From contig CH464491.1 in the NCBI GenBank assembly GCA_000002445.1, forward strand, positions 4,288,001 through 4,352,000: a stretch of 64,000 nucleotides of DNA, given 5' to 3'. Under the pieces are notes generated by a model. It made no database searches. It was not told where the DNA came from and worked only from the letters and a program-made list of their open reading frames with translations. Position numbers and translations under genes: made by a program. Numbering within the stretch: the first letter of the stretch is position 1; every line of letters begins with the position of its first letter. This document shows, in pieces, positions 17,601-49,713 of this stretch. Source of the stretch: Trypanosoma brucei. Its lineage: Eukaryota.

Positions 17601-18131
17601 AGTAATGACGACAATACCAAAAGGAGAAACGCTTTGATTGATTGATTGTTTGTTTGTTTTTGAAAGTGAATGTGCGAAGAAACGAAATAAATACGTACAT
17701 ATGAACATGAAAGCGACGCCACACACAAGCATACATGATATATTTCCGAGGAAAAAGAAGCGAGAGTATGAGTGAACGCAGAGCAAAATAAGAAAAGGGC
17801 AGAAAAGCCGAGGAGGGAGTGACATTCTTCGCATAACCACTCACGCACCAGCAGCACGTGCTACAGGAGAAGAAAAAAAAATTTACAATCCTTCATGCCA
17901 TGAAGTAGGGATCCTACGACAAGCATAGGGAAGAAACGAGGGGGGGAGGGGAAATAATAATAATATTTGAGAAAAATCCAAAATCTACAGCCACCTAACC
18001 AACCATTTTATTCATCGCCAGTTGAACTTTCACCTATCTCCATCACACACATACACACACCCAAATGAGGGGGGGGGAAACAGCTTTTTTTTAAAAAAAC
18101 CACAACCAACGATATTCGTATCCCCGCAAAG
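14618..18131. repeat. 3.5-kb low-complexity intergenic spacer with pyrimidine-rich tracts, (GTTTC)n-like and (TA)n repeats and G-runs
   Basis: No credible ORF. Contains cgtttcgtttcgcttcgtttcgtttttttttt (about 16700-16735), (TA)n at 14985-15001 and 17070-17090, and G-rich elements at 15265-15330. Confidence 0.7.
15265..15330 (+). repeat. G-rich cluster: a G10 run plus GGAGGGAGGGAGGGGGGGGGGCGGAGG, a G-quadruplex-capable motif
   Basis: Seen directly. It has at least four G3+ tracts with short loops on the plus strand, which is the non-transcribed strand if the array is transcribed as minus. Confidence 0.8.
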
Positions 18132-30452: not shown

Positions 30453-33400
30453 CTATGGCTTGTGTTTCCCGTGACGTCCCACTGATAATGGGCGGTATCC
30501 ACGCCGCCAACGCTGGACATCCTTTTCCCAGTCGTTTACAGCGCTACCGTCAACAGCAGCCCCTAGTGAACGCAGCGCCTTTTCCATCCGCTGCATCCGG
30601 CGCTCGTGTTGCAGCTCAGCTTGTCTTCCAAGTAAACTATGACCCTTCCCAGTCGTAAGTCCATCGTCCTCATCACCCTCGCCATTATATTGGTAATGGG
30701 AGGAAGAGGAAGGTTCCACCTCGTACTCGTCATCCTGCATCGTCGCTTCCGGAATGTTGTCGCGGTACGTTGGGTCCCATATATCCGCTGGGTAACCGAG
30801 CCGGCGCAATAAATACTGCAACGCATCGCTTATGGCCACCACACGCTCCCTCAAGACACTGTGCTCATGCGGTGTCATGCCCTCTATCTTGAAGACAATA
30901 AAAGGACTCCGTGTAGAAGCATCGTAGCTCATATTCGCAGTCGCCACCAGAACTAACTTACGCAACTCAGCCTGCAAATCCTCGTGTAACTCCATTTCAT
31001 GTGATTCCACCGAAGAAAAGGGCTTCGGTACCTCCACCCTTAAAAAAACAGTGCAACTGCCTTTTGCCAACAAGTTACCAACATCGGCTAACGTGTTTGT
31101 GGCACCCCGCCGAGCATCTTGCAGCTCACGAAGACGCATTGAAGTAAGGTTTCCGGTGTGTAACAGCTCAATCACGGCAACGGCTGGGATCCACAGCACC
31201 CGCGAGATGCGATGCTCTTCCCTCATAGAATCACACAAGGCAAGCGACAACAACGTACCACTGAGCGAAGCACGTACCATAACACTATCCCCACCCTCAT
31301 TAGGGCGTCGATGAATTGCAGGGCATTCATCCACCCGAATACCGTACTTTACGACTCCACAACCCGCTTCGTGATTATTTCGACTGTCAAGCATATCCAC
31401 AACACGTTTCACCGCAACCGTACACGCTACGCACCCACTATTAACGCTTTCATTGTTCTCCCCTGATATGCAGCAGAGAGTCAGCCCCCAATGCTCACGC
31501 AAGTGACCCAAATCGCACCACGGGAAAAAGGTATCCGTACAATGAACCTCGGAATTAATTTCACCCGTGGGAACGGATCCCGGAGTGTCCGCGAAAGTTG
31601 CAGGCAAAACACGGTTAGGACTTGTGCGCACTTCAATAACGCAAACGTAACAAACATCCTCCACAGCACTTAGCGGATCACTGCGCCACGAGCAACGAGC
31701 AACATCAGCAACAATACGATCATCACAGTACGAGGGATCCTGCTCTGGCTGGCCGCCCTCCAGTGGAACCCAAGACCGTAGCCCACTGCGCCCTCCAGAT
31801 ATAATCGAAGACAGTGAAGTTAATGCATCAGTATCAAATGCTTCTTTGTCCTGCACACCTTCTAGTGGTTGAAAGGGTCCCTTGTCGCCCTCTGGAAGTG
31901 GAATGAGGTGGTAAACGCGATCGGAGCTTTCGCGAGAAAGATCAGTAAGCACAGATGCCACTACCGCCTCGTTTTCTAGGGGATTCAAACTGTGAGTCGC
32001 GTACACAACACGCCCACATCGCGGATTTGCGTACTGCAGGGCTTGCATCAACTCCGACCGCAGGTAATGGAAAAGTTTGTTGACTCTCGGACAGACAGAC
32101 ACAAACCGGTTCACCACAGCATTTCCCTCCCCCTCCTCCTCCCCCTCCATGGCACCACTAACACCTAATGCATAACGGGGCTTGCAACCGTCGGCGGTTG
32201 TATCTGGGCAGCACAGTACATAATTGCAGTTGCCACGTAACCCCTCATGTACTTGACGCGGAGGGGCTCGTAGCAACACGTGACCCTCAACACCAGCGTG
32301 ATAACCCGTGCTAAACTGCAATTCAACCGCGCCACTCCTCAAACAACCCTCTGCGCTGCTGTTGGCCGCGGGGACGTCTTCCTCATCTGCCCGAGCACTG
32401 ACATGACACTTGCGGCTTGCCACATTGCTCGTACCCGAACCAACCACACAACCAACCTTACGGTTTGGAGACACTAATGAAATAACGACATATCCTACAC
32501 TACTTTCCCCTCCTTCACTGGGATACGCCATGTAACTAGCGATGTCTTTACTGTAAAAACGCTCAGACATGCGGTACGATCGGCTAGACATGTCAAGAAT
32601 AATCTGCGTATCAGCGACGGCACTAGTGACTCTCAACAGCAAAGGGATCAACACACCCAAAAGATCTGAATCAATAAGTGTATCAGCAGCCACCTGTCGC
32701 TGCAACCAATACATGTGACCAATCGTCAAAGGTGAGCTCTTCATTACTTGGTGTACCCCACTCACCTCTGGGACGCATGATATCTCATCCTCCAGGAACG
32801 ACGCCAAACTCGCCGCTTCACGAGAGGTGGTTTCCGCTCCCACCATGTCATCTTGCCGCTGCGCAACGACGCACTCATTAACCGAAACACCTGCAGGTTC
32901 ATTAGGTGGTAGAGCGGAGGGAGAATTCGATGTGTTAAGAAGGGCCATTGGGTCGCAAGTGGATTGGCGGGGAAATAATTCTGCAGAAAAGAGCAGCGGA
33001 TGAGCGGGGTGTTGTGTGAACACGGCTCCGCGGCCCGAACTCTGAGCACTTTGTGCGTGCCGAAGCAACTGCCAGAGGGTCACAAAACGGACAAATGGAA
33101 AAGCGGAGTTCACAATGAGCAAAAGACCCGGTGGTCCCGTCATGATGTCAACAAGACGTTGGCCCTCTGCCCCCGTTACCAACCCCTGCCGCTCGTAATA
33201 TTCAGCGAAAAAACGGCGATGAGCATCTCGGGCTTCCTCCGCTCGTTCCTCATCCGACTCAATGTCCGCTTCCATAACATTCTCCACATCAACCTCCGTA
33301 TCCGACGTTAACGCCAGCTCCTCGAAAAAGTGACGGGCAAGTTGCATGGTGGAGACCGTCCGCTCCACCGCGTCGTCGGCGTCTTCCTGAGCTAAAAAAG

Positions 33401-33659
33401 CAGCCGCTTCATCATCATTAGCGAACGAGACGCCCTCCACGAAGCCACCGGCGTCACGATCAACAGGATTGGGAATTAAACGTACTGGACGGGCGTTGGT
33501 CCACTCACCGCGCAGTAACTCACGGCGGTCTTGCGGAGTCATCCGCCCGATATCGCCCCAACCATGACGTAGCGAGGCAGAGGGCATGTCAGTAATGGAA
33601 CGTGGGATTCGGCGACTTCCACCGCGTTGCAACAACATCAAATGAGTGGTACGGATCAT
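30453..33659 (-). CDS. NOL1/NOP2/Sun (NSUN) RNA m5C-methyltransferase-like protein, 1068 aa, with the motif-VI catalytic Cys replaced by His
   Basis: GRVVYATHSLNPLENEAVVASVL aligns with NSUN2/NOP2 motif VI, G-R-(L/M)-VYSTCSLNP-(I/E)-E(N/D)EAV. The TC dipeptide is TH here. The protein is very large with long acidic insertions. Confidence 0.7.
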   Translation of the reverse strand: MIRTTHLMLLQRGGSRRIPRSITDMPSASLRHGWGDIGRMTPQDRRELLRGEWTNARPVRLIPNPVDRDAGGFVEGVSFANDDEAAAFLAQEDADDAVERTVSTMQLARHFFEELALTSDTEVDVENVMEADIESDEERAEEARDAHRRFFAEYYERQGLVTGAEGQRLVDIMTGPPGLLLIVNSAFPFVRFVTLWQLLRHAQSAQSSGRGAVFTQHPAHPLLFSAELFPRQSTCDPMALLNTSNSPSALPPNEPAGVSVNECVVAQRQDDMVGAETTSREAASLASFLEDEISCVPEVSGVHQVMKSSPLTIGHMYWLQRQVAADTLIDSDLLGVLIPLLLRVTSAVADTQIILDMSSRSYRMSERFYSKDIASYMAYPSEGGESSVGYVVISLVSPNRKVGCVVGSGTSNVASRKCHVSARADEEDVPAANSSAEGCLRSGAVELQFSTGYHAGVEGHVLLRAPPRQVHEGLRGNCNYVLCCPDTTADGCKPRYALGVSGAMEGEEEGEGNAVVNRFVSVCPRVNKLFHYLRSELMQALQYANPRCGRVVYATHSLNPLENEAVVASVLTDLSRESSDRVYHLIPLPEGDKGPFQPLEGVQDKEAFDTDALTSLSSIISGGRSGLRSWVPLEGGQPEQDPSYCDDRIVADVARCSWRSDPLSAVEDVCYVCVIEVRTSPNRVLPATFADTPGSVPTGEINSEVHCTDTFFPWCDLGHLREHWGLTLCCISGENNESVNSGCVACTVAVKRVVDMLDSRNNHEAGCGVVKYGIRVDECPAIHRRPNEGGDSVMVRASLSGTLLSLALCDSMREEHRISRVLWIPAVAVIELLHTGNLTSMRLRELQDARRGATNTLADVGNLLAKGSCTVFLRVEVPKPFSSVESHEMELHEDLQAELRKLVLVATANMSYDASTRSPFIVFKIEGMTPHEHSVLRERVVAISDALQYLLRRLGYPADIWDPTYRDNIPEATMQDDEYEVEPSSSSHYQYNGEGDEDDGLTTGKGHSLLGRQAELQHERRMQRMEKALRSLGAAVDGSAVNDWEKDVQRWRRGYRPLSVGRHGKHKP

Positions 33660-34665: not shown

Positions 34666-37600
34666 TTTGTTCAGTTTCACCCACACAGTTCCCTCTGCAA
34701 TAGGGAAAAAGGTGCAATCGGGTCTTGTATTTTAATTCCCCTTTGATCCGTTAATACGGATTTCGCTGCTTCTTTTATTTTTTTAAAAAATTAAAGTTCT
34801 GTCTCTTCCTTTGATTCCCTCAAGTTGTTTTTTTTGTTTGTTTGTTTCCCCTCCTTGAATCTTACTTTATGTAGTACCTTTCCATGGAGTTAAATGAGGA
34901 GTTTTTTTTAAATAAAAAAAAAGGAGAAGCGAGGAGCAAACAAACAAACGAAATAAGATTGATTCAGCCAAACCACATGATGCAAAAGGCACGTAATGGG
35001 AAAATATTACAACAATAATAAGGTAAAAAAATATATAAATATATAAGAAAGGATATGAATAATAATAATAATATGCTCATGCCAGTGATAATGCTGCAGA
35101 CACTTTGAGCACAACATTCTACATTGCTGTTTCTTTTCCTTTTTTTTTGTGTATGTGGGGCGGGGGTTTCCTTGTATTTTCCTTCTCTTTGTTGTTGTTG
35201 TTGCTTTTATGTTCTCCTCTTATATTTATTTTTCCTTCCTTTTTAATTCATTTTGAAGGGAAATAAAGAGGAAGTGTACTTTTCTCTTTTCGTTTCTTTT
35301 TGTTTTTTTTGTACAAACTTTTGTACCCACCAAAAACTAAAAAAAAACAAGGATTAAATAATACCCACCGGCATGAAGAACGATGCGCTACGCTGCTTTC
35401 TGATGCTTGTGTGTTCGTGTTGGTATATATATATATAAGAAAGTGGGAGGTGGTGGGACACTTTTTTTTTTGTGTGTGTGTATATATTCATTTTATTATT
35501 TCATTTGTGTATTTTTTTTGAAATTTTTTTAAATTTAATTTTTATTTTTCTATTTCATATTATATTTTATATCTCCTACAAGTGTGAGCGGCGCCGCTTT
35601 TAAATTTCCCCACACTCACAAACATATATTCCCATCTTTTATTGCACCATCATTATTATTATAATATACCGCCATTAACACAAACACCACCACCCTTCAC
35701 ACACTAGCGAGAAAACAAACAAACAAATATAAATATATAAATGTTTCTTTGTTTTATATTTATATATTTATCTATATATGCCTGTGCAAATAATAATATT
35801 TTTTGTTAAAAAAGGAAAAGGGAAGAGGAAAAGTATTTGTCAACGAGCGTAGGGACGAAAAAAAAAAAAAGAGGTACACAGGAATAAAATTTAAAAGGAA
35901 GAAAAAAATTCTGCAAGAAAAAAAAGGGGAAAGTAATAAAAACAACAACAACAATAATAATAATAATAGTACTAAAAAGAAAGGGAAGCGGAAGAAGGAA
36001 GAAGGAAGAATTTCGCATGAAAATGCAGAAGTTCAACACGAAACAAACCAAAGCAACCACAAAAAAAAAAGCAAGCCAAAGAGCGAATACATCAGAAAAA
36101 GAAAAAAGAAAGAGGAGAATTTAAATAATAACAGACGCACGCGTACCATAACGGGAAAAGAAAAAAAAATGAGAAAGCAAAGACACACATAACGTTTGTT
36201 GCGACATTTTGTTTTTTTTTCTTTTTTCTTCTTTTTGAAATAATAAACACTGATAGCAGCGGATAAAAGAAAAAGGAGGAATCCTTTTTTTATTGTTTGT
36301 TTGTTTGTTTTCCTCCCTTTTTAATTTAATTATTGGGGAGACGGAGCGAACTCTGATAGCCCCTACAAACGGCGATGTTGCAGAAATAAAAACCTTTTTT
36401 GTTTTTTTCTTTTCATTTTCTTCTTTTAGGTTTCCACTATATCTTCTCAAACCGTATGCAAAATAATTCTTTTCTTGGTCTTCTTCATTTCAGCGACATT
36501 TCTTCCACTTTTTTTTTCTTTTTGGCTTTTCTTTTTTATTTTATTGTATTTTATCTTTTTTCTGATTTCGCCTTTTTGTGTGTTTGTTTTATTATTGCTG
36601 CAGCAGGTAAGAAGAAGAGTGAACTGAGTAGAGTAGACATCACGACACAAAACGATAATAACAATAAAAACAACAATAATAATAATAATAATAAAACACC
36701 GAAGGCAACAACGCAAAGAAATGGAGAAGGGCAAAAAAAAAAAGTAAACACTGCGCAAACATCCCACCCATTCAAGCATCCAAAAAAAAAAAAAAACATA
36801 AATTTATACTCGTTTATATAAATAAATATATAAATATATTCTCTTTTTTTAAAAAAAAAACATTCTAATGATACGTGCCATCAAAGCATTTTCGTATATT
36901 TCTTATGCACAATGATATCATGACTTCAACTTTCAGTTGCAGGTGAATGTCATCTCCCCCTCTTTTTCTATCCTTTTTTTTTCCTATTATTATTATTCTA
37001 TTTTTTCACTTCACACACATATATATATATACATATACATATATTTGTATTGCCGCGTTTCATTTCACTCCTTTTCTTTTCTCTGCATCCTTTTTGTTGT
37101 TGTTGTTGTTTTCTTTTTCAATTTGATTTCTTCGGTAATTGTGTTTAACCGAAAGTAATGTAGGAATGAAAGAACGGATGAAAAAGAAGCCGGCAGTAAA
37201 GAAGAGGAAACACTCCACCGGCGATAACATGAACAATAATAATAATAATAATTTATAGCTAATAATAATAATAATATAACTATCGACAGATCTCAGGGAG
37301 AAACGGAGATAAAAAAGAAAAAGCGCAAAGAAAAAAAAGAAAGAAGGACGGGGAAGATCGATTTAGACATTATTATTATTATTATTATTTTGCACGGCGG
37401 CACGGTATACACCTTCAAAATGCACACATGTAACTTGACTATTGAAACAAAAAACAAATCAAAACAAAACAAAAAAAAAAGAACGCAATTCAGAATTCCA
37501 CCTCCTTCACTCAGTCAGTGGCTTTTATTTGTTATTATTATTTTTTTTTGCAGTTCTGTTGCTTTTTGGTTTTTTTTCTCTCTTTCTCTCTCTTTTCTCC

Positions 37601-38423
37601 TTCCTTTTTTAAAAAACATTTGCTCCTTTTAAGTACTTTTTGTTTAATTGCATTTGCTACTGAAGCCAATAAATTTTTCTTTTTTTTAAAAAAAATACTA
37701 CATAAGAAATAAAATATTCAAAACAAAAAATAAAATAATACAAAATAAAGACGACTTCACTTTCTTTTTTTTTCCCCCTCCTCCTCCTTCTCTCCCTTGT
37801 TCCGTCTTGATTTCCACAACAACAACAACGCAAAACTTAAAAACAAAAAAAACACTATCGGGAACCGTTTTCTTTTCTTTTCTTTTCTTTTCTTTCTTTC
37901 TTTTCGTTGTTATTGTTGTTTGTTGTAGTTGTTCTCTCCCTTCTTTTTGAGTTTTCGATTTCCTATTAATATCTCCCTTTTCCTTTTTCATTTCTTTTTT
38001 TAAAAAAAAACAGAAAAGGGAAATTAAAACACCCTCTCGTGTTGTCATTATTATTATTATTATTATTATTATTGTTACTACTACTGTCCCCTTCATAACA
38101 TCACCTCCTTTAAAAATTAAAGACACAAAAATGTCACTCGGCTTTTCTTGTGTTTATTTATTTATTTATTTTTTTCTCTTCTTTTCCTCTGTTACTGTTA
38201 CTTTTAGAAAATAGGAAAAAATGAAGGGAAAATTTGTTGTTGTTGTTTTTCAAAAAAAAAAAAAAGATTCTTTTATACTTCAGCAATTTGAAATATCCAC
38301 GATAATTCGCTTCCGTGGTTCATATTGATTTGTCTTCACATAAATAATTATGTTTATTTTGTAAGCGCTTCAGCGTGTAGACACGAGAGATGTACTCCTC
38401 ATCACGCTCATTCTTCACTTTAC

Positions 38424-38430
<7 letters not shown>

Positions 38431-38470
<40 letters not shown>
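38431..38470. repeat. (TA)20 microsatellite
   Basis: Perfect TA run seen directly. Confidence 0.95.
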
Positions 38471-38472
<2 letters not shown>

Positions 38473-38494
38473 CTTTAAAATAATTTCAGTCAAT

Positions 38495-38640
38495 TTTAAA
38501 CATTATTATTATCATTATTATTATTGTCATTATTATTATTACTGTTATGATTTATCACCACTCTGTAATAGTAGTAGTAGTGGTAGTAATAATAATAATG
38601 ATAATAATAATCATAATAATCATAATAATATTGATGTCAT
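38495..38640. repeat. Imperfect inverted repeat made of (ATT)n on one arm and (AAT)n on the other, with cruciform/hairpin potential
   Basis: Left arm cattattattatcattattattattgtcattattattattactgttatg. Right arm ctgtaatagtagtagtagtggtagtaataataataatgataataataatcataataatcataataata. The two arms are near reverse complements around the centre tcaccactc. Confidence 0.7.
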
Positions 38641-40242
38641 CGTCATTTGCCTTCAATTCCTGCACACTTATTCACTCACTTACTCATTTATTGTTTATAT
38701 CCTCCGGTACTCTCTGCTTCATCATATATATAAATACATAAATATTTAACTTTTTTTTCAAATATTTATATGTATTTGTGTGCATTTGCGTATGTGTGCA
38801 TTTGGGTGTTCGTGTTTACCGCCAGCTTTCAAATATAATATATATGCTACACATTTCCTTCCATTAATTCCTTTTGCTTTTGTCCCTTTTTTTTCTTTTT
38901 TTCCTTTCTTTTTTGCTGTCATTTTCTAAAGGGAAGAAATCAAAAAAAAATTGTTCGTCATTTCACCTGACCACTGATTTGATTTTGTATATTTTGATTT
39001 CATTATATATTTATATATGTTGTTTTCTTTGTTTTCTTTGTTTTTTTTTAGTAATGCATTTCCCTTGTATAAATATATATATATAAAGTAATTATAAGAA
39101 GAACAATCATAAACAAATAAATAAGCGATGAAAAGATATTATATTTCAAACCAACAGAAAAAGAAAAAAGGAAGAGGAAGAGGGAAATGAAAAGTGGAGA
39201 ACAGAAAGGTAAAGACAGAAGTAATAGAAAAATAGATATGAAACAAAGGGAAACAATAAACAACAAAAACAGTAGTGAATCGAAGAAAGAAAGTAAGTAA
39301 GAAAGGAAGGAAGGAAGGAAGGACAAGAAAAAAAAAAGAGGGGGAAAGGGAAAGCCAATCAATCAATAAATTAACAGTTAAAAATAATTATAAATAGTGA
39401 TTAAATAACAAAAAAAACAAAAAGAAACAGAAAATAAAAAGTTATATCATATCATATAATTTTATATAATAATGGTGGCGAAGACCCGGAGAAAAAAAAA
39501 CAAAAAAATTGAGAATGTGTCCAAAAAAGAAAAACCAAGAAAGGAAAGAAAAGGAAGGAATATCAAGTAAGGGAAACTTAAGTAAATAACACCTTCACTC
39601 ACCCACACCTTGAAGCACATCGAAGAGTCCAATAAACACATTAAATGCATAAATATAAATATAAAAATATATATACGTCTTTTGTTTTTTTTCTTCTTTC
39701 CTCTTTATTTGGTTGTTTGTTTATACGCTTACGTCCGTACACGCGCCTGTGTGAGGGTGTGTAATCTTTTTTTCTTTTTTTTAAAAAAATTATTCTTTCT
39801 TTCTCTTTCTCTTTCTCTCTCTCCCTTTCTTTTTCCCTACCCCCTCCTTTTAAACTTCTTTTTCTTTTTCTTTGTCTTATTGTTTTTGTTTTTGTCTTTG
39901 CTGTTGTTGTTGTTTTGTTGATTTTTTTTAAAAATTTTTTTCTTTATATTTATATTTACGTGTTTGTTGGACTCATATAAATATGTGTACATATATTTGG
40001 TGTGTGCTCGCATGTTTGCATGCATGCATGCGTGTGTTTGTGTTTGCGTGTAAATAACCCTTTTCCTTATTTTTCCTTCCTTCCTTTCTTTTTTTCTTTT
40101 TCTTTTCTATTCCAATTCTCATTTCTCTTAAAACTTCTCTGTTATTATTCTCGTCTTTTTTGTCTTTTGTCTTTTTCTTTTTTTTTTTAATTGGGCGCGT
40201 GTGTGTGTGGGGGTGGGGGGAAGTAAATCCAGGAAATTAAAA

Positions 40243-40245
<3 letters not shown>

Positions 40246-40282
<37 letters not shown>
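40246..40282. repeat. (TA)18 microsatellite preceded by a (GT)n/G-run
   Basis: gtgtgtgtgggggtgggggg ... followed by (ta)n, seen directly. Confidence 0.95.
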
Positions 40283-40283
<1 letters not shown>

Positions 40284-42221
40284 TTTTTTTTATTTTTCTT
40301 CTTTCGGTTTACTTTTTCGTCGTTTTTATTTCTTTTCGTTTCGTTTTCTCCTTACTTCCTCTGTTAACAATAATAATGATGATAACAATAGTGACTATAA
40401 TAATAATAATAACAACAATATTAAAAATAATGGTAATAGTAATAACAATAATAATAATAATAGTAACAGTAATATAAGTCACACACACACAAAAAAAAAG
40501 ATTATAAAAGAAAAAAACAGAAAGGAGAGGAGAGGAGAAAAAAGGAAAGAAAAAGTCACACTACAAAAAAAAAAGAAAGGGGAAATAAAGAAGAGAGAGA
40601 GAGACAAAAATGAAAAAGGGTCGATCACCCGTGGGAGGAACGTGTAAATTAAATAATAATTGCCGTATCTTACAGATGTACATATGACACACACACAAAA
40701 AAAAAAAGAAAGTACAAAACAAAAATATATTTATATCAATTCTTTATTTATTTTAAATTTTTATTTTATTTCTACAAGAAAGGTCAACACAAGAGAATGG
40801 AGTAATCGTAACGAAAATGCTAAAATCTAAAAAAAAAATTCTCCCTCCCCTCCACACCATACCAAAACAACGAAGAAAAAAACTAAACTAAAACAACAAG
40901 AATAAAAATAAAAATAAAAAAAAAGATAAATTAAAAAAAATTTAAAAAAAACATAATAATAAAAAGACATGAAAAATCAGAAGGGAAGGAGGCAACACAC
41001 CAACAAGTAAATAAAATATGCCATAAATAAAATGTGATGTGGCCTCGGATTCCGCACGCTCACTAAATATAAATATTTATATATTTATTATTATTATATA
41101 TATATTTATATATTCTCTCATCAAACCCCTCCTCCACTTGCTTCTTTTTTTTTATTCTTTTTATTCCTTTCCTTTCTTCCTGCGTTATGGGATTACACCC
41201 GCATCTCTCACAAAAGAAAAAAGAAAAATAAAGAAAAAAAGAAACCCGACAACAACAACAAAAAAAACACACATTTCTCTGCCCGTGTTAATTCGGCACG
41301 CCTTTCACTCCCTCCAATTTCCACCCTCTTTGTTTCCTATAATATATTCATTTTATTTATTCATTTTATTTTATTTTTTGCCTATCCGTCCGTGTTCCTT
41401 TCTTTTCTTTTTTCTATTTTCTTATATTTCTTTTGTGTGGACTCCCGCACGCGAAGAGGGCACAAAATATTTCTCACTCGCCACAATCTCCAAACCCTCA
41501 AACTAAAGAGAAGGGAGGGGAAAAACAAAAAAAGTAGAGAAGTAAAACAAAAAGAAACCATCCCCCAAAGCGTCAGCTATCATATAAATAAATATATAAA
41601 TATATATAAATATATAAATATAAATAAATATATATTTATATAATTTCCTATTCCTTCTTTTAATCTTCTACAAAACTGAAAATGTACGTTTTTTTTTTTC
41701 CCTCCCCACACTTTTTTTGTTGTCTAATAATCATTTCGCTGCTTTACAGCTTCACTACATAATAAACAACAACAATATACTTCACAAACAACACAATAAC
41801 CAAAGAAAAGTAAATAGTAACAGACAAAACAAAACAAAACAAAAGCATCATTGGAACCCTTTCAAAGGTGGTCAGTTATTTTAATAAATTCATTCATTTA
41901 TTTATTTCATTTATTTTCCTTTCCTTTTTTTTTTTTACCCCTCATCTATTTCTTTTATTTTATTTTCTTCCTTTTTTTTTTATTCCCCCCTTTTTAATTC
42001 CTTTTTCATCCCTTGTTTAGTTTTTTGTCTTTCCTTTCCTTTTCCTCCTTCATTCCCTAATTGTTTCTGAAGTTGATCATGAACCCCATCAAAACAGGGA
42101 AATTGAGATGCACTTTTTTCTTCTTTTTTAAAAAACAAAACAAAACAAAAACAATAATTTAAAGAAAGAAGAAGAAAAACGTAAAGGAAGAAAAAAGAAG
42201 AAAATGATAATGATGATTATA

Positions 42222-42252
<31 letters not shown>

Positions 42253-43351
42253 TATTCAAAAATGAAATAGGAGGAAAAGACACTAAACAAAAAAAAGTAA
42301 AGGAACTTGAAAAGTGAGATAAAACAATAAATAAAAGCAAAACGAAAAAAAAAACAAGAACAAAAGGACGAAAAAAAAATGGCAATGAAAGGGATTGGGA
42401 TGAAAAAGAAAAAAAGAAAAAACAAAAACAGAAACAAAACAATACAGTAAAAGATAATGATAATGATGAAGCGCTCGGCGTGTTAAAGTGCAACAATAAA
42501 AAAAAAACAAAAACGGTTCAGTGGACGGAAAAGTCGAAGGTTACTGGAAACAAAAAGCGTAGACGGGAAGGGGAAGAGAGAAGCAGAGTTAGAGGAAATA
42601 AATAAAACAAAACAAAAAAGTTTTTATATTCTTCTTTTATTATTATTATTATCTCCTTTACAATAATACTAATAATAAATAAAATAAATGAATAAAATGA
42701 TAACAACGGAGAAGAACGTAAAAGAGGAGCAACAAAGCGGAAGCAAACGAACAGACACACTGATGGAAAAATATGATGAAATATTTTTTGAAAAAAAAAA
42801 GGAAAAGAAAGGTAAAGTAAGATTGGGGGACTAAGCACACACACAAACAAACATGAATAAACATATAAAACTAAATATATAACCAAATATATAAATATTT
42901 ATGTGCTCACTCAATATCCCCCTTTATTTTGTCTTTTTCAGTATCATTATCATTATTTTATTTTATTTATTTATTTATTCTCCCCCTTCTTTTCCTTTTT
43001 TTTATATTTCCCATCTTATTTTTCTTTCTTCCATTTTGTTCGCTACATCATTTCATTTCACTCTTTACGTTATCTCTCTCCATCTCTTTCTCTCTCCTTC
43101 TCTCTCGTTGTTCTTCCTGCATCACAACTATTTTCAGTTTCTTTTTTTTTTGCTTTTTTTTGATTTTGTTGCTGTTGTTATTTTCTCTCCCATCTCCCTT
43201 TCTTTTTTTTTCTTTTAAAAAAAAAGCAAAAAAAAGTTTTTTTTTCCCCTTCCTCCAAATGATCCGATCAACGCACAAACGCACAAACACACACTTCGCT
43301 GTTGAATCATTCCCTCCCTCCCCAAAGAAAAAAAAACAAAAAACAAAAAGA

Positions 43352-43412
43352 AGCTCACTCACTCACTCACTCACTCACACGCACGCACACACACATATAT
43401 ATATATATATAT
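43352..43412. repeat. Compound (CTCA)n-(CA)n-(TA)n microsatellite
   Basis: gctcactcactcactcactcactcacacgcacgcacacacacatatatatatatatatatatac seen directly. Confidence 0.9.
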
Positions 43413-46400
43413 ATACACCATTCACATATTCAAACAAAAAACGAATGAAAACAAAACAAGAAAAAAAAGGTAAATAAAATTAAATTAAAGTAGGAAAAAA
43501 AACAAAAAAAATTGACGCCACAACAATTTGTTGAAGCAAACGAAGAGGGGAAAAATATGAAAAATGGACAAAGGAAAAGGGCAGCAGCAGCAGCAGCACC
43601 CGCTGCTGGTGCCACACACAAATTCACTCATTTGTTCAATCACTCATATCATTAAATACGTATATTATATATATCTACATATATGACAGAACACATTTAC
43701 GCAATAGTAATAGTAATAATAATAATAATTATTATTATAGTAATAATATATAGATATATTTACTTATGGAAATATATATATATATATATATATATATCAA
43801 ACGCAGCAAGAAAGCGGATGGTATTTAGTATTGGAGCCATACCGCCTCATTCCTCAGGCTTCTCACCTCCTTTATTTTTTTCTTCTCTTCTCACTTGTGC
43901 CTCGTTTTTTCTTTCTTCTTTTCTTTTCTCTCAAGTTTGTTTTCTGCTGCTTACACAAAAATGGATGTAATGCGTATAAGCAACCGCACAACAAACCAAA
44001 CAAACAAACAAAAGAGTTAGAGGAAAGGTTACAAGTGATGATAATAATAATAATAACAATAAGGGAAGAAGAGAGACCCAAAAACAAAATAAAACAAAAC
44101 ATTGAGCAAATGGAAATAATAATAATAATATTATATAAATTATATATATATATATATATATACAATATAAATAAATATATATACATATATAAATATATAT
44201 AATTATAACAATAAAACAAGACGGAAAAACGCAGTGAAACATGAAATGTAGTTACAGAAAGAAAACCAAACAAGCAAACATATAAAAAAAAAGAAAAAAG
44301 AAAGAGAGGGGGAAAAGGAAATCAGAAGACACATCAACACTCCGCCAAAGTACGAAGAATACGGAGCATACAGATAATATATAAATATATATAAATATAC
44401 ATATGTATATAACATAATAGAAAGAACATAAAAACGAAAGAAAAAAAAACGACGGTCAATCACCAATCAAAACGTCAAATTGATCCCGAACGGAACAAAG
44501 TTGTGGGGAACGCGAAAACAAAAAAAAACACCCACAAAAAAGACGTGGCGGTGGTGGTGGTGGTGGCGGAAACTCAAAAACGAAAAAAAAAGGAAAAGAG
44601 TGAACCGAGCCGCAGGAGACAAATATCAGGACAAGAAAAAAAAAACACCAACCCACACATATGCCTAAAAGCGTCAAGGGAAGAAGTGGCCATCAGAACT
44701 GATAACAATAAAAAAAAAACAATTGATGAAAAGAAAAGTAAATGACAGATTTGACGACGACAACAACAATAACAAGTAAACAATAATAATGATCACCATT
44801 ATCATCATTTATATCATCACAATGCCACAACAACAAAAAAAAACAAAATCACGGAAACTCATCCCTTCTCTCTCTCTCCCCCTCCCACTCGCCTTTTGTT
44901 TCTTTTTGAACTTTATTGTCGCTGTTTCATTTATTTCTTCCTCTTGATTCGTATTTATTTATATAAAAGAAAAACCATTGCTTCCTCGGACTCCCACACG
45001 AAACAGCCTTTAAAACAAAACAAAAGAGCGCTAACAGAGAAAGTCAGAAGGCAAAGAAAGAAAGAAAAAACAAGTCAGGCACACAAATATGTAATTAAGT
45101 ATAAATTTATAAATATAAATCTCCACCACAACGCAAAAGATAAATATCAAGATTATATATATAAATAATATAGTTTTTACATATAATTTTAAATTAATTA
45201 TGGCGTAATGAGGGGACCTGAAATATCCAAAAACATTGAGAACGAAATCCACAGGAAAGTATACTGAAACCCAGTAGAGAAAGGGGAAAAGAAAGGAGGT
45301 AAAAAAAAAAAACACACACACTTACAACCAGAGTGTCAGAACCTTAAATATAATTAAATATGGTTTAATAGGGGGCAAATATAAGTAAATATAAGTAAAT
45401 ACATATAATACATATGCACCATATGTATAGATGTGTCATTATTAGCTAAAAGGCGGGAAATACACAATCACAAACACAATCACAATCACAATCACACACG
45501 CAATATAATAACAATAATGATGGTAATGGAAGAATTCATACGTAAATGTATGAAGGGACCATAACATGAAAAGAAAGAGAAAAGAAGGAGGAAGAAAAAC
45601 AAACAAATAAAAACGCAAAACATAATCAAAAAAAGGAAGGAGGTATTTTTCTTTTTCATCTTCGTGTCTTTACTGAATTTTTTTTAGATTGCTTTGATTC
45701 TTTAACCTTGTTTTTTTTACCTTATTCTTTGTACTCAGGAGGTGGGGACGGGGGGGGGATATCTCCCGCGAAGCAAATTGAATGATGATAATGATAATGA
45801 TGATAATGATATGGCAAAGCAATTAGTGCCGGGGTTGCGTGGGGCAAGTTTTAGAGGGATATGAGGAGAAGGAGAAAATAAAGAGGGGAAAGGGGGGAAA
45901 TGAAAACAGCAAACACAAACACAGGAGCCTATTTATGTATTCATTTTATTTGCTTATCCATTCATTCATTCATATTCAATCCTTCATTCGGTCGCAAAAG
46001 AGAGGTGCACGCATGCGCTAATGTATTCAACATGTTGGTGCAAAATATATCAAGCGAAAGAAAAATAGTACAAAAAATGAGGGAGGAACTAAAGGAAAAC
46101 AGAAATGGGCTGGCACGCGAGTTTTTCGAATAGGGCAAAGTGTAAAGGGAAAGGGAAAGGAACAGACAGGTACGCGCGCGCCCATGCATTTAAATCACGC
46201 GCACAGGAGCCCTCCACCCGCCTCATATTATTATTTTTTTCTTTTTTTTAATCACCCCATCCACCCACACCCCAAAGACGAGGGGAAATTTCCTTGTATT
46301 TTTTTCTTTTTTCCTTTCCTTCTTCTTTTTTTTTTCTCTTATCTCCTCTCCTCTTTTCCTTCTTTCACCCTCTCCTCTCCCCTCCCCTGTCACGCCCTGT

Positions 46401-48180
46401 AATTGTCAATGCCATTATTATCACATTGTCATTAGCTCATTCAGTTATTTTATTTCACTATTGGTTAGGTTTGATATTTTGTTATTCTTTTTTTAAATTT
46501 TTTTTTGCTTTCCCTCTTCCCCTCCCCCCTCTCCCCTCTCCGTTTCTTTCTCTTTCTTTACTTTACTCTCCTTTCCTTCTTTTTGAAACTCCTTTTTTTT
46601 AAATATAATTTTTTCTTTCTTTTTCTTTGCTTTGTTTTTGTTTTTTCAGAGGGAAAGTTGGATCAAACTTTTTTTCTCTGTGACTGGCGTTGTTTGTGTT
46701 GTTCTATTATCATTATCATTATTATAATCATTCATTTTCATTTTTTCCCCTTCCTCTTTTTTTTGTCTTTTTTCTTCTTTTTTTTCCTTTTTCTTCTGTT
46801 ACCTTTTTATTATTTTATTTTTTTTGTTATTTTTTATTTTATTTTATTTTATTTTTTGAGCGTTACTGTCCTTTTTTCTTTGTTGTTGCTGGGTTCCAAA
46901 AATTCGGCGAGTACTCCAACAACAATAACAATAAATAACAACACGGAGGGAAGTGAGAAGGAAGCCACACACATATATGTATAAACATAAGCACAAACGC
47001 ACGCAAACACACAAAAACGAACAAAAAAAAAGCAAAGGAAGGAAGGAAAGAGACACTAAAATGTCTGAACTTCCACAAGTGACAAAACAAATACGGGAAC
47101 GGAAAAACGAAAGAAAAAAAAAGGAAAGAGAAAACAAAAACAAAATAAAATAATAAAATAGTAAAAGATACGCACAATGAAAAAAAAAAAGTACAACATA
47201 CATACTTTTATAACTCCCTCCACAAATGCACATGACCACTAGCCACGACCACGTGCACACAAAAGAAAAAAAAAGGAAAAGGGAAAAGGAACAAGGAAGA
47301 ACCAGAGGGAAAAGGGAAAAAAAAAGAACAACAACACACTTTTCCAATGTGTTTCTCATAATATATATATATATATTCATATTTATATTTATTTATTTAT
47401 ACCTACAAATATATAAATATAGGTGTGTCTGTGCATTTGTGTCTATGTTCATATATGTGTTCATTCATTCATTTCCCCCTTGTTTTTCCTTCCTTTCCTT
47501 TCCTTTCCTTTCTTCTCCCTTTTTTTCTTTTTCCTCCTCCCCCTCTTCTGTTAGTCTATTTCAAATATTAGGTTTTTGGGTTTGTCCTTCCCCTATTTCT
47601 TCCCTCGCTTCCACAGCTCGTTGGAAACATGCGGTCTCACCATTTTGTATTGGTCATCAGTATTTTACTTCGTATGGTGTGTCGCAGCCTCTTTCGTTTT
47701 GATCATTTCACTTATATCGAGTCTTTCTTTTTGATGTGTGTATGTGTGCGTGTGTGCATGAGTTCGATTCTTCTCTCCCATTCGACGGGAATGTATGGGC
47801 TCAGTCATCTTTTCTTTTCCTTTTTTTTCGTGATTACTTTTTCCTTTCGTCTTCATGCTTCAATTTATGACCCATACATACACATAAACAAACAAACACA
47901 CACACACACACACACGGACACATGATTTGCTCCGCCTAAAGCGCTACATCGACATCACTTTACTTCTTCTCTTCGCTGTTTCCACGCTTTGCTCTCTCTC
48001 TCTTTTTCTCTCTCGATCTCTCTTTTTCAATCCTACGACTGCTCCAAATACTTCAACCGTTTTCTTCGCTAACCGCTAGTTTCTTTTCTTCTGATCGTTC
48101 CTTTTCACGTCATGCATTTCCCCCCCCCCCAACACACACACACATTCTTCCACTTACCATCACCTGCTTTCAGTTGACTT

Positions 48181-49713
48181 TTACACATATGTAAGCAACA
48201 GCGGCGAGATGACGTAGTCGGAGGCGGAACTGCGTTGGTTAACAGGCTGCCGCGACACCTCAGGTCCCGGGAGCTGTGAAGCCTCCGGGTGCTGCTGCCG
48301 CTGCGTAAAGTATGGAGAAGAAGGGCTTAATGGCATCGCCGGCATCTCCGCCGGAGAGTTGTTCGTATATGAAGTCGGTCGCGAGGTGTAGACGGGCTCA
48401 AACGAATACCCCTGAGACGCATTCAACACACGAGATTGTTGTTGTTGTTGTAAGTGGGGCGGATGATGGTGGTGGTGGTGGTGATGATGATGCGTTTGCT
48501 GTTGTTGTTGTTGCTGCTGAAATGAGTTGTGGTGATGTTTGTAAGACGGGCCCGGTGGCACTACGAGTGGACCTCTACCTTGTTGCATTGGGCCACAACT
48601 ACCGAAGGAAACAGGTCCCGCTGCATGTTGTTGGTGCAGCGGCAGGTTGTTGGTCATATAACCACTGGAACCGCCATGCGGAGATCCCGCCTGTTGATGC
48701 TGTTGCCGATAGCCACCGCGGCTCTGGTACGGGTGCCCGCCCATGTGTTGGGAATGCCCACTTAGGCCGCCGTGGGGATGGGGGTGGGAACGATGCATCT
48801 GCTGAAGCTGTTGTGGGTGAAGGTGGCCGTGGCCTCCACCGCCTCCGTAACCACCCCTGTAGGCCGAGTTGTATTGCTGCCGCTGCGACCGCATCGAGTG
48901 GCCTTGAGACGGCATTTGGGGGGAACGCGTGTTCAAATGAACACGGTGAATAAAGTTACACAAACTTCCACGCCCACACCTTTCGCGTTCGTAATGCTTG
49001 CAAAACCGGAGATATTTCGTGGAGTCACTGTGTTGAGCCTCCTCGCTGCCCTTCGTACGGTAGACTTGCTCTGAAGGCACTTGCACCGGGTTCGCTGCTC
49101 CGCCTCGCAAAGAGTGACCCGCGTTGATGTAAAAAACTGAGCCTGGTTCATGTCGCTCGTATGGTGCTTCTTCCAATAAGGCAACAGGTGTGGACCAGTG
49201 AACCAGATTGACAGTCACAGGCAAGTCACCGTCACGAGGTTCTGCAAAGGTGTGCCGACTGTGGATGAAGTCACAACGGTCCCCGTGGGCACACGAGGCA
49301 TTGGTGGAAAAGGATTTGCAAAGGTATAGTGCGTAACTCGGCTCCTTTGTACCTCTGTTTCGTGACAAATAGTTTTTCGACCCAGAAGTAGTCTCGATGA
49401 ATTCGGACGGGATACACAGCGCTTTGTTCTTGTCAGCACTCAGCACGTGGAAGCGGCGGTCGTGCTGACCCGACTCATTGGCATCGATATTATCCCCATC
49501 AGTACCCTTGTCAGGGGCCACTAATTCTGTTGGCGCCTCGAGTGGTTCCTTCTGCGGTTTGCTGCTACTGCACCTACTGTTGCTCCCGCTCCCAGGAAGT
49601 ACCTTGGTGAAACAACTTTCAGGTCGATCCGTGTTAGGCAGCACAGGGGAAAGAATGTCTAACCCCGCCTGCTGCTCCTGTGGCGAGCCCAAAGAGTCCT
49701 TCGCTTCACTCAT
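48181..49713 (-). CDS. CCCH-type zinc-finger protein (two C-x7/8-C-x5-C-x3-H fingers) with a long Q/H/G/Y-rich low-complexity C-terminal half
   Basis: CKSFSTNASCAHGDRCDFIH and CKHYERERCGRGSLCNFIH are CCCH fingers. The C-terminus has poly-Q, poly-H (HHHHHHHHHH) and GGYGGGGG runs. The ORF extends to 49809. The preferred start is MSEAKDSLG at 49711-49713. Confidence 0.7.
   Translation of the reverse strand: MSEAKDSLGSPQEQQAGLDILSPVLPNTDRPESCFTKVLPGSGSNSRCSSSKPQKEPLEAPTELVAPDKGTDGDNIDANESGQHDRRFHVLSADKNKALCIPSEFIETTSGSKNYLSRNRGTKEPSYALYLCKSFSTNASCAHGDRCDFIHSRHTFAEPRDGDLPVTVNLVHWSTPVALLEEAPYERHEPGSVFYINAGHSLRGGAANPVQVPSEQVYRTKGSEEAQHSDSTKYLRFCKHYERERCGRGSLCNFIHRVHLNTRSPQMPSQGHSMRSQRQQYNSAYRGGYGGGGGHGHLHPQQLQQMHRSHPHPHGGLSGHSQHMGGHPYQSRGGYRQQHQQAGSPHGGSSGYMTNNLPLHQQHAAGPVSFGSCGPMQQGRGPLVVPPGPSYKHHHNSFQQQQQQQQTHHHHHHHHHHPPHLQQQQQSRVLNASQGYSFEPVYTSRPTSYTNNSPAEMPAMPLSPSSPYFTQRQQHPEASQLPGPEVSRQPVNQRSSASDYVISPLLLTYV

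What the first reader, a model, noticed from the sequence alone, without database searches (positions are those of the whole stretch)
30453..33659. NSUN-family m5C RNA methyltransferase-like protein lacking the catalytic motif-VI cysteine (TC to TH)
The segment GRVVYATHSLNPLENEAVVASVL aligns convincingly with NSUN2/NOP2 motif VI (G-R-x-VYSTCSLNP-x-ENEAV). The nucleophilic Cys of the TC dipeptide is His here. I could not see a clean motif-IV PC either. The protein is very large at 1068 aa, with acidic insertions. This points to a pseudo-methyltransferase, such as an RNA-binding scaffold or chaperone derived from an NSUN enzyme, or to a very divergent catalytic arrangement.
Basis: partly seen in the sequence, partly recalled or inferred. 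Interest (0 to 1): 0.5.

Follow-up and report, generated by a model that had tools for sequence, protein, structure and literature searches.

The report
Dead NSUN2-like methyltransferase in trypanosome mitochondria
This Trypanosoma brucei gene (Tb927.11.16530) encodes a mitochondrial protein that keeps the shape of an RNA cytosine-methylating enzyme but has lost every residue needed for the chemistry, so it most likely acts by binding RNA or a partner enzyme rather than by methylating.

Summary
ORF 30453-33659 (-) encodes 1068 aa and contains GRVVYATHSLNPLENEAVVASVL. It is T. brucei Tb927.11.16530 (Tb11.01.8230, UniProt Q381D3).

It is a true NSUN relative:
- family profile against canonical NSUN2/Trm4 profile: hhalign 99.5%, E 4e-23
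- an NSUN2/Trm4-specific N-terminal element matches independently (96.9%, E 2e-10)

All chemistry is gone:
- the motif VI Cys position is never Cys in 28 of 28 relatives, and the His is not conserved (H/Q/R/S/L/D/N/Y/K)
- motif IV Cys is Thr (Cys survives only in Bodo saltans and one unnamed lineage) and motif IV Asp is lost
- the motif I SAM loop and the motif II acidic residue are lost and unconstrained

The loss predates the split between trypanosomatids and bodonids.

Published proteomics shows the protein is made and depends on ATOM40 for mitochondrial import. It is missing from the published seven-gene T. brucei m5C methyltransferase census, and I found no paper describing it.

Verdict: an ancient, conserved mitochondrial pseudo-methyltransferase derived from NSUN2/Trm4. 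Its non-catalytic role (RNA binder or prozyme) is inferred, not shown. Moderate interest.

The parts
30453..33659 (-). Complete ORF of 1068 aa plus stop codon. It is Tb927.11.16530 / Tb11.01.8230 / UniProt Q381D3 / XP_829710.1.
   Evidence: ORF listing. Exact sequence identity to Q381D3/XP_829710.1. Q381D3 is listed as Tb927.11.16530, 117.5 kDa, in Peikert 2017. The TrypTag C-terminal tagging primer for Tb927.11.16530 matches 30456-30535 (-) exactly.
33591..33659 (-). N-terminal presequence-like segment, about residues 1-23 (MIRTTHLMLLQRGGSRRIPRSIT). It is Arg-rich and contains no acidic residue.
   Evidence: Twenty orthologues have 5-9 Arg/Lys in the first 30 residues, with the first acidic residue at position 17-45. 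TargetP and MitoFates are both positive in Peikert 2017 Supplementary Data 2. The cleavage site is not determined.
33048..33248 (-). NSUN2/Trm4-type N-terminal element, residues 138-204 (…RRFFAEYYERQGLV…LLIVNSAFPFVRF…).
   Evidence: Cropped hhalign against the canonical NSUN2/Trm4 N-terminus gives 96.9%, E 2e-10 over 66 columns. Translation. pLDDT is about 90-97 in the model.
31620..32744 (-). Methyltransferase-like Rossmann domain, about residues 306-680, interrupted by low-confidence insertions.
32556..32609 (-). Degenerate motif I, residues 351-368 (TQIILDMSSRSYRMSERF), where canonical enzymes have VLDMCAAPGSKT.
   Evidence: The invariant canonical residues C201, P204, G205 and K207 map to variable residues in the family. 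Only the Asp is partly kept, in 14 of 24. This half is not detectable by sequence on its own (hhalign 1.2%), although the strand-helix pattern is predicted.
32472..32495 (-). Degenerate motif II strand, residues 389-396 (GYVVISLV), where canonical enzymes have G-x-V-x-A-N-D.
   Evidence: The canonical acidic residue (D in 17 and E in 5 of 22) maps to L/S/T/A/R. The canonical Asn maps to S/A.
32175..32222 (-). Motif IV remnant, residues 480-495 (YVLCCPDTTADGCKPR). Thr487 (32199-32201) is at the catalytic Cys position and Cys484 is at the Asp position.
   Evidence: hhalign column mapping. Family census at the Cys position among the 27 members that span it: Thr or Ser in 25 and Cys in 2 (P0028, and Bodo saltans P0034 'CPRCSGDG'). 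Asp490, Gly491 and Arg495 are kept in 22-24 of 24. Translation.
31947..32015 (-). Motif VI remnant, residues 549-571 (GRVVYATHSLNPLENEAVVASVL). His556 (31992-31994) is at the nucleophilic Cys position.
   Evidence: Translation. The position is never Cys in 28 of 28 relatives. The flanking G, Y, T, S, N, P, E, E, A and V are kept in 18-24 of 24. This is the most conserved block of the protein.
31623..31784 (-). End of the methyltransferase domain, carrying NSUN2/Trm4-type elements: residues 626-679 (GLRSW…, …SWRSDP…, …CYVCVIEV).
   Evidence: Aligned by hhalign to canonical 'RPGL..W' and 'C.R..PH....GGFFvavL'. Gly626, Trp630, Arg659 and Pro662 are kept in 23-24 of 24.
30456..31592 (-). C-terminal region, residues 690-1068, of unknown fold. 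It contains a conserved 'V-A-L-R-D-A-L-x-Y-x-x-R' helix and a basic tail.
   Evidence: No Pfam hit. hhalign to the NSUN2/Trm4 C-terminal domain is only suggestive (5.4%, E 0.007, against 0.2-0.3 for mismatched controls). Family conservation is 0.24-0.39. Asp945 and Leu947 are nearly invariant.

Best explanation
Tb927.11.16530 is an ancient, catalytically dead paralogue of the NSUN2/Trm4 class of RNA cytosine-5 methyltransferases. It is imported into the trypanosome mitochondrion and works by binding, not by methylating.

Shown:
- It has the NSUN fold and NSUN2/Trm4-specific flanking elements.
- It lacks the motif VI nucleophile, the motif IV Cys and Asp, the motif I SAM loop and the motif II acidic residue.
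- These losses are shared by all relatives from Trypanosoma to Bodo, while the rest of the protein is conserved.
- The protein is expressed, and its level depends on the ATOM40 mitochondrial import pore.

Inferred:
- Without a SAM pocket or a nucleophile it cannot make m5C.
- The residues that are still conserved line the former substrate cleft: DG-x-RPR after motif IV, the S-x-N-P-x-E-N-E-A-V-V block, Trp630, and Arg659 to Pro662. The cleft is therefore probably still used to hold a ligand.
- Given the NSUN2/Trm4 ancestry, the most likely ligand is RNA. Imported tRNA is the first candidate and mitochondrial rRNA or mRNA the second. The protein would then act as a non-enzymatic RNA-binding chaperone, adaptor or scaffold.

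My confidence is about 0.9 for 'dead NSUN2-derived pseudoenzyme', about 0.85 for 'mitochondrial', and about 0.45 for 'stand-alone RNA binder'. The overall figure of 0.6 reflects the whole statement.

For: Loss of chemistry: motif census and residue table.

Age and constraint: 28 relatives at E<1e-30, including Bodo saltans and Phytomonas. Twelve columns are invariant and 42 nearly invariant across 24 sequences.

Expression and location (PMC5436138 supplements): 12 peptides; SILAC ratio after ATOM40 RNAi of 0.18 in purified mitochondria (p 0.011), 0.44 in whole cells and 0.40 in the organelle fraction; present in the earlier mitochondrial proteome; TargetP and MitoFates positive. The presequence-like N-terminus is shared by 20 orthologues.

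Against: No experiment here or in the searchable literature shows RNA binding, lack of SAM binding, or any phenotype.

The structural statements rest on a predicted model whose coordinates I could not inspect, so pocket geometry was not examined.

The TrypTag C-terminal tag gave only a weak 'endocytic, cytoplasm[reticulated]' signal, not a clear mitochondrial annotation.

The protein is not in the 2008-2012 lists of mitoribosome, editing or MRB1 components. It is not a chain in any solved structure. No RNA machine can therefore be named.

The conserved block around motif VI could be kept for fold stability alone.
Confidence: 0.6

Rival explanations
1. Prozyme model. The dead NSUN2 paralogue is the obligatory non-catalytic partner of an active mitochondrial NSUN enzyme. 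The candidate is CRMT4, Tb927.5.2420. The dead subunit would activate the enzyme or target it to its RNA substrate, as kinetoplastid prozymes do for AdoMetDC and PRMT1 and as non-catalytic RNase III partners do in editosomes.
For: T. brucei keeps seven canonical CRMT homologues. One of them, Tb927.5.2420, localises to the mitochondrion and kinetoplast region (PMC11045063 S1 Table). Our protein is in the same compartment. Dead paralogues that pair with active enzymes recur in kinetoplastids (PMC6221367, bioRxiv 10.1101/776112, PMC6800513). TRM6, the non-catalytic subunit of a tRNA methyltransferase, shows that this logic exists for RNA methyltransferases (it is listed).
Against: No interaction data exist. 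To my knowledge NSUN2/Trm4 enzymes act as monomers, and NSUN4 pairs with MTERF4, which is not a paralogue. At 1068 aa, with large extra regions, the protein is far bigger than a simple mirror-image partner. I did not have the sequence of Tb927.5.2420 to test for co-evolution or to model a complex.
Confidence: 0.2
2. The protein is still an active methyltransferase with a relocated catalytic apparatus. For example, conserved Cys483 or Cys523 would act as the nucleophile, with an unconventional SAM site.
For: Cys483 is kept in 23 of 24 relatives and Cys523 in 20 of 24. Pseudoenzymes with migrated catalytic residues are known in general (PMC10211241, abstract).
Against: Cys483 corresponds to a non-catalytic Cys that canonical NSUN2 also has, next to its true catalytic residues. 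The motif I loop, the motif II acidic residue and the motif IV Asp are not merely changed. They differ freely between species, so no alternative SAM or cytosine pocket is under constraint. The former nucleophile position itself takes nine different residues.
Confidence: 0.04
3. It is a non-functional relic: a decaying gene or an annotation artefact that merely contains an NSUN-like peptide.
For: As a single sequence the Pfam hit is below threshold. About a quarter of the modelled part is low-confidence insertion.
Against: An intact ORF of about 1000 aa or more is conserved from Bodo to Trypanosoma, with 42 nearly invariant columns. The protein was detected with 6-12 peptides in three independent SILAC data sets. 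The core fold is predicted confidently, with 224 residues at pLDDT of 90 or more.
Confidence: 0.02
4. It is a non-catalytic protein whose conserved cleft binds something other than RNA, such as a protein partner or a metabolite, in a mitochondrial process unrelated to RNA.
For: The protein is absent from the older mitoribosome, editing and MRB1 inventories. More than half of its length lies outside the methyltransferase fold and has no recognisable domain.
Against: The retained residues are those that flank the RNA and cytosine site in the enzyme family: R after motif IV, the motif VI block, Trp630 and Arg659. The NSUN2-type N-terminal element, which is part of the RNA enzyme's architecture, is among the best-conserved parts.
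Confidence: 0.15

Closest known systems
NSUN2 (human) / Trm4-Ncl1 (yeast) tRNA cytosine-5 methyltransferases
   Same: Best sequence relatives. The two are collinear over the N-terminal 'F..YY..QG…P.P..f.VN' element, the Rossmann domain, the motif IV and VI blocks, and the 'GL..W' and 'R..P….F' elements at the end of the domain. The fold is the same.
   Different: No motif VI Cys, no motif IV Cys or Asp, no SAM loop and no motif II acidic residue. Several long insertions. Mitochondrial rather than nuclear or cytosolic. About 300-400 extra residues.
NSUN4 (mammalian mitochondrial rRNA m5C methyltransferase and mitoribosome assembly factor, partnered with MTERF4)
   Different: NSUN4 keeps both cysteines and binds SAM. 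It lacks the NSUN2-type N-terminal element. The profile score to NSUN4 is weaker than to NSUN2 (E 0.012 against 6e-5). Our protein is not in any solved mitoribosome intermediate.
NOP2/NSUN1 acting non-catalytically in ribosome biogenesis
   Different: NOP2 retains all six motifs, so its non-catalytic role is added to an intact enzyme. Here the enzyme is permanently disabled.
Kinetoplastid prozymes (AdoMetDC prozyme, PRMT1 prozyme) and non-catalytic editosome RNase III partners
   Same: A catalytically dead paralogue of an active enzyme family, conserved in kinetoplastids. Active paralogues coexist, one of them in the same organelle.
   Different: No evidence of a heteromer with an active NSUN. 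Much larger than its active relatives. Belongs to a different enzyme family.
mt-SAF13 / mt-SAF14 of the T. brucei mt-SSU assemblosome, and TRM6 (non-catalytic tRNA methyltransferase subunit)

Membership tests
NSUN / RsmB-F m5C RNA methyltransferase superfamily (Pfam PF01189) | RsmB/NSUN-type class I Rossmann methyltransferase fold | tested here: met
NSUN / RsmB-F m5C RNA methyltransferase superfamily (Pfam PF01189) | Significant sequence-profile match to the family | tested here: met
   As a single sequence it falls below Pfam's threshold (16 bits against 27). All 7 orthologues hit PF01189, best E 8.7e-5. hhalign profile against profile gives 99.5%, E 4e-23.
NSUN / RsmB-F m5C RNA methyltransferase superfamily (Pfam PF01189) | Motif VI Thr-Cys nucleophile | tested here: not met
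   His556 in the window protein. Cys is present in 0 of 28 relatives, and nine different residues occur at the position.
NSUN / RsmB-F m5C RNA methyltransferase superfamily (Pfam PF01189) | Motif IV Asp-x-Pro-Cys (Asp that contacts the cytosine, and the second catalytic Cys) | tested here: not met
   The Asp position holds C/V/A/T and is never Asp. The Cys position holds Thr in 21, Ser in 1 and Cys in 2 of 24. The census agrees.
NSUN / RsmB-F m5C RNA methyltransferase superfamily (Pfam PF01189) | Motif I SAM-binding loop (D-x-C-A-A-P-G-x-K) and motif II acidic residue | tested here: not met
   Canonical C201, P204, G205 and K207 map to variable residues. The motif II D/E maps to L/S/T/A/R. This region has no detectable sequence similarity on its own.
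NSUN / RsmB-F m5C RNA methyltransferase superfamily (Pfam PF01189) | SAM-dependent formation of m5C in RNA | not testable with these tools
   This needs biochemistry. The sequence predicts no activity.
NSUN2 / Trm4 subfamily | Subfamily-specific N-terminal element (F-x-x-Y-Y-x-x-Q-G … P-L-P-x-x-f-R-x-N) | tested here: met
   Cropped hhalign gives 96.9%, E 2e-10 over 66 columns. Mismatched controls give 0.2-0.3%.
NSUN2 / Trm4 subfamily | Elements after motif VI ('RPGL..W' and 'C-x-R-x-x-P-H … G-G-F-F') | tested here: met
   Gly626, Trp630, Arg659 and Pro662 are kept in 23-24 of 24, and the aromatic at 671 is kept.
NSUN2 / Trm4 subfamily | Homologous C-terminal domain | tested here: inconclusive
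   hhalign gives 5.4%, E 0.007 over 86 columns. No confident model of this region is available.
Kinetoplastid prozyme-type pseudoenzymes | Catalytically dead paralogue coexisting with active paralogues, at least one of them in the same compartment | tested here: met
   Seven CRMT homologues exist, and Tb927.5.2420 is mitochondrial. Our protein is mitochondrial and has lost its catalytic motifs. That the paralogues are active is assumed from their motifs and E-values. It was shown only for TbNop2's motifs.
Kinetoplastid prozyme-type pseudoenzymes | Forms a heteromer with the active paralogue and stimulates it | not testable with these tools
   No interaction data were found. The supplements of the complexome papers are not held as text.
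Structurally defined T. brucei mitoribosome assembly factors (mt-SAF / mt-LAF) | Present as a chain in solved assembly intermediates | tested here: not met
   No PDB chain matches beyond the motif VI similarity to NSUN2, NSUN4 and Nop2. The protein is not in the Zikova 2008 mitoribosome list.

The most novel reading that the evidence does not exclude
The dead NSUN2 paralogue is a dedicated mitochondrial handler of RNA cytosines. One version is a non-enzymatic tRNA chaperone or 'reader' that recognises cytosolic tRNAs after import; kinetoplastid mitochondria import all of their tRNAs. The other version is the first NSUN-family prozyme, in which the dead subunit supplies substrate recognition to the active mitochondrial NSUN Tb927.5.2420. 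Either would be a new way of using the m5C methyltransferase fold, conserved since before trypanosomatids and bodonids split.
Probability: 0.25. Interest if true: 0.7.

Novelty: new variant of a known kind. Interest (0 to 1): 0.45.

Why it matters
Census. T. brucei was reported to have seven cytosine RNA methyltransferase homologues. This gene is an eighth NSUN-fold protein that BLAST-based censuses miss, and it cannot be a methyltransferase. Anyone assigning m5C sites in trypanosome RNA to enzymes needs to know this.

Biology. It adds an NSUN-derived member to the growing list of pseudoenzymes in kinetoplastid mitochondrial RNA biology. Those mitochondria import all their tRNAs and build unusually protein-rich ribosomes and editing machines.

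Evolution. The protein has stayed conserved since before the split from Bodo, after losing both cysteines and the SAM site. That gives a natural separation-of-function allele for asking what the NSUN fold does apart from methylation. The same question is open for NOP2, NSUN4 and NSUN2 in other eukaryotes.

The protein is kinetoplastid-specific in its present form and is expressed, so its role in parasite mitochondria can be tested directly by RNAi, CLIP and complexome look-up.

Tried and rejected
- Full-length AlphaFold2 with only 7 sequences gave mean pLDDT 42. I discarded it and replaced it with a domain model built on 24 sequences.
- The alignment-seeded homologous-protein search returned only the six Trypanosoma sequences already known, so the census rests on the exhaustive representative search.
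- The look-up of encoding contigs found no record.
- I considered that the gene might be CRMT6, Tb927.11.15630, from the published census. I rejected this because canonical NSUN2/Trm4 proteins reach only E 5e-5 to 0.2 against it at proteome-size search space, against 4e-13 reported for CRMT6, and because the gene ID was then fixed as Tb927.11.16530.
- Literature searches by accession or ID found no main-text mention.
- Searching three T. congolense papers' supplements for the orthologue ID failed.
- The ID was recovered from neighbouring genes instead: EAP2, ZC3H46 and Roadblock/LC7.
- The Leishmania NSUN2 knockout paper concerns other paralogues.
- The NSUN7 paper says nothing about catalytic residues.
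- The two 2026 complexome papers have no supplements held as text, and their main text does not mention the gene.
- My first mapping of the invariant 'WLQRQVA' onto canonical 'RQEAVSM' was corrected by the hhalign column map. The canonical E and S of that motif correspond to Asp332 and Gly/Ser335.
Full report
1. THE OBSERVATION

The minus-strand ORF 30453-33659 is intact and encodes 1068 aa. As a single sequence the similarity to NSUN enzymes is confined to this block and falls below curated thresholds. Pfam PF01189 gives 16 bits against a gathering score of 27. NCBIfam RsmB/nop2p models give E 0.007-0.019. PDB NSUN2 gives E 0.16.

2. IDENTITY OF THE GENE

The protein is 100% identical to T. 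brucei TREU927 XP_829710.1 / EAN80598.1 / UniProt Q381D3. GenBank names it 'hypothetical protein, conserved', and UniProt auto-names it 'SAM-dependent MTase RsmB/NOP-type domain-containing protein'.

The neighbouring ORFs encode a Roadblock/LC7 protein, a CCCH zinc-finger protein, a nucleotide-sugar transporter, a DEAD-box helicase, an RRM protein and an RNase PH protein. They match the published identities Tb927.11.16540 (Roadblock/LC7), Tb927.11.16550 (ZC3H46) and Tb927.11.16600 (EAP2).

Peikert et al. 2017 list Tb927.11.16530 = Tb11.01.8230 = Q381D3, 117.5 kDa. The TrypTag tagging primer for Tb927.11.16530 matches window 30456-30535 (-) without a mismatch. The ORF is therefore Tb927.11.16530.

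It is not one of the seven 'CRMT' homologues found by BLAST with yeast Trm4 (PMC11045063 S1 Table). Canonical NSUN2/Trm4 proteins reach only E 5e-5 to 0.2 against it in a proteome-sized search, which explains the omission.

3. IT IS A GENUINE NSUN2/TRM4 RELATIVE

An exhaustive profile search of 1.84 billion representatives found 28 relatives at E<1e-30. After those came only canonical NSUNs, which match through the motif VI block. Named members include Trypanosoma species, Leishmania, Phytomonas and the free-living bodonid Bodo saltans.

A 24-sequence family profile aligns to a 22-sequence canonical NSUN2/Trm4 profile with 99.5% probability, E 4e-23. The alignment runs from motif IV through motif VI to the 'RPGL..W' and 'C.R..PH…GGFF' elements. 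In greedy mode it is collinear over 565 columns. The N-terminal element (residues 138-204) matches the NSUN2/Trm4-specific N-terminus on its own at 96.9%, E 2e-10. In the PDB profile search NSUN2 scores best (E 6e-5), ahead of NSUN4 (0.012) and Nop2 (0.22).

4. ALL CATALYTIC AND COFACTOR RESIDUES ARE GONE, AND THIS IS ANCIENT

I mapped every invariant residue of the canonical profile onto the family.

- Motif VI Cys maps to His556 here. Across the 24 aligned members it is Q in 9, H in 6 and R in 3, plus L, D, N and others. It is never Cys in 28 of 28 relatives.
- Motif IV Cys maps to Thr487: Thr in 21, Ser in 1 and Cys in 2 of 24. The two that keep Cys are Bodo saltans ('CPRCSGDG') and one unnamed lineage ('TPFCSDDG'). 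These anchor the alignment to canonical 'DVPCSGDG'.
- Motif IV Asp maps to C/V/A/T and is never Asp.
- The motif I residues C, P, G and K map to unconstrained residues (SSRSYRMS here, and quite different in Leishmania).
- The motif II acidic residue maps to L/S/T/A/R.

On its own, the SAM-binding half has no detectable sequence similarity to the canonical profile (1.2%), although the strand-helix pattern is still predicted.

The only well-conserved cysteines are Cys483 and Cys523. Cys483 corresponds to a non-catalytic Cys also present in NSUN2. Cys523 lies in a family-specific linker.

Residues that frame the former cleft are kept in 18-24 of 24 sequences. These are Asp490, Gly491, Arg495, Gly549, Tyr553, Thr555, Ser557, Asn559, Pro560, Glu562, Glu564, Ala565, Val566, Gly626, Trp630, Arg659 and Pro662. 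The motif VI block is the most conserved part of the protein. Because Bodo already lacks the motif VI Cys, the enzyme was disabled before bodonids and trypanosomatids diverged. The gene has been maintained ever since.

5. WHERE THE PROTEIN IS

All 20 orthologues examined begin with an Arg/Lys-rich segment free of acidic residues. The published data are as follows.

- After RNAi of the import pore ATOM40, the protein drops to 0.18 in gradient-purified mitochondria (12 peptides, p 0.011), to 0.44 in whole cells and to 0.40 in an organelle fraction.
- It belongs to the mitochondrial reference set, was seen in the earlier mitochondrial proteome, and is positive in TargetP and MitoFates.
- It is not in the mitoribosome (2008), editing or MRB1 lists (PMC5436138 supplements).
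- The TrypTag C-terminal tag gave a weak 'endocytic, cytoplasm[reticulated]' signal, which neither confirms nor excludes a mitochondrial network.
- No solved structure contains the protein.

6. HOW IT MOST LIKELY WORKS

Shown: the protein has the NSUN2-type fold without a nucleophile, general acid, release Cys or SAM site. It is conserved, expressed, and dependent on mitochondrial import.

Inferred: it cannot methylate. The conserved cleft-lining residues suggest that it still holds a ligand, and the ancestry makes RNA the most likely one. Imported tRNA is the leading candidate, because NSUN2/Trm4 are tRNA enzymes and kinetoplastid mitochondria import all their tRNAs (the latter from my own knowledge).

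The main alternative is a prozyme-like partnership with the active mitochondrial NSUN Tb927.5.2420, following the kinetoplastid precedents for AdoMetDC, PRMT1 and editosome RNase III pairs. Residual catalysis and 'junk' are both unlikely, for the reasons given in the rivals section.

7. COMPARISON WITH WHAT IS KNOWN, AND NOVELTY

By fold and ancestry the protein belongs to the NSUN superfamily and derives from the NSUN2/Trm4 branch. It fails every chemical membership criterion, so it should not be filed as a methyltransferase.

Database pipelines already flag the domain (the UniProt name), and proteomics had placed the protein in mitochondria. I found no paper that discusses the gene, and it is absent from the published CRMT census.

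8. VERDICT

One correction applies: the 'TH' is not conserved, so what defines the family is the absence of Cys rather than the presence of His. Interest is moderate (0.45). The result is solid and useful for RNA-modification and mitochondrial biology in kinetoplastids. The function is still inferred, and pseudoenzymes are common in this system.

Noticed in passing
window 34700-48180: A 13.5 kb AT-rich tract (GC 0.27-0.35, against about 0.5 in the flanks). It has no ORF longer than 182 aa, no satellite array and no Rfam match. It lies directly 3' of ZC3H46 (Tb927.11.16550, ORF 48181-49809 on the minus strand) and 5' of the Roadblock/LC7 gene. It may be an unusually long 3' UTR or intergenic region of a regulatory RNA-binding protein gene.
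   Followed up: partly
window 6037-7560 (-): A 507-aa ORF whose only Pfam signal is a sub-threshold Enolase_N match (28.7 bits against a gathering score of 35). No Enolase_C domain is detected. It may be another enzyme-derived pseudoenzyme.
   Followed up: no
window 16000-18000: A second, shorter low-GC stretch (GC 0.36) between coding blocks.
   Followed up: no
whole window: Every ORF with domain support lies on the minus strand, consistent with a single polycistronic transcription unit. These are a TPR protein, TYW3, TMEM18, enoyl-CoA hydratase (Tb927.11.16480), the NSUN-like gene, Roadblock/LC7, ZC3H46, a nucleotide-sugar transporter, a DEAD-box helicase, an RRM protein, EAP2 and a C2HC zinc-finger protein. 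No tRNA, snoRNA or other Rfam family reaches threshold.
   Followed up: partly
related proteins P0028 and P0034 (Bodo saltans CUG91738.1): Two divergent family members still carry Cys at the motif IV position ('TPFCSDDG', 'CPRCSGDG') while already lacking the motif VI Cys. This suggests that the nucleophile was lost first and the second Cys later.
   Followed up: partly
related proteins P0032 (2821 aa), P0036, P0038, P0040 and P0045 (1700-1830 aa): Several unnamed relatives from SRA and ENA assemblies are much longer than the Trypanosoma protein. P0032 looks like a fused gene model. The source organisms are unknown, so the taxonomic limits of the family are not settled.
   Followed up: no
TrypTag record for Tb927.11.16530 (PMC9981465, supplementary file 2): C-terminal tagging gave 'endocytic[weak], cytoplasm[reticulated,weak]', although mass spectrometry gives strong evidence for ATOM40-dependent mitochondrial import. 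The N-terminal tagging result was cut off in the text I could read.
   Followed up: partly
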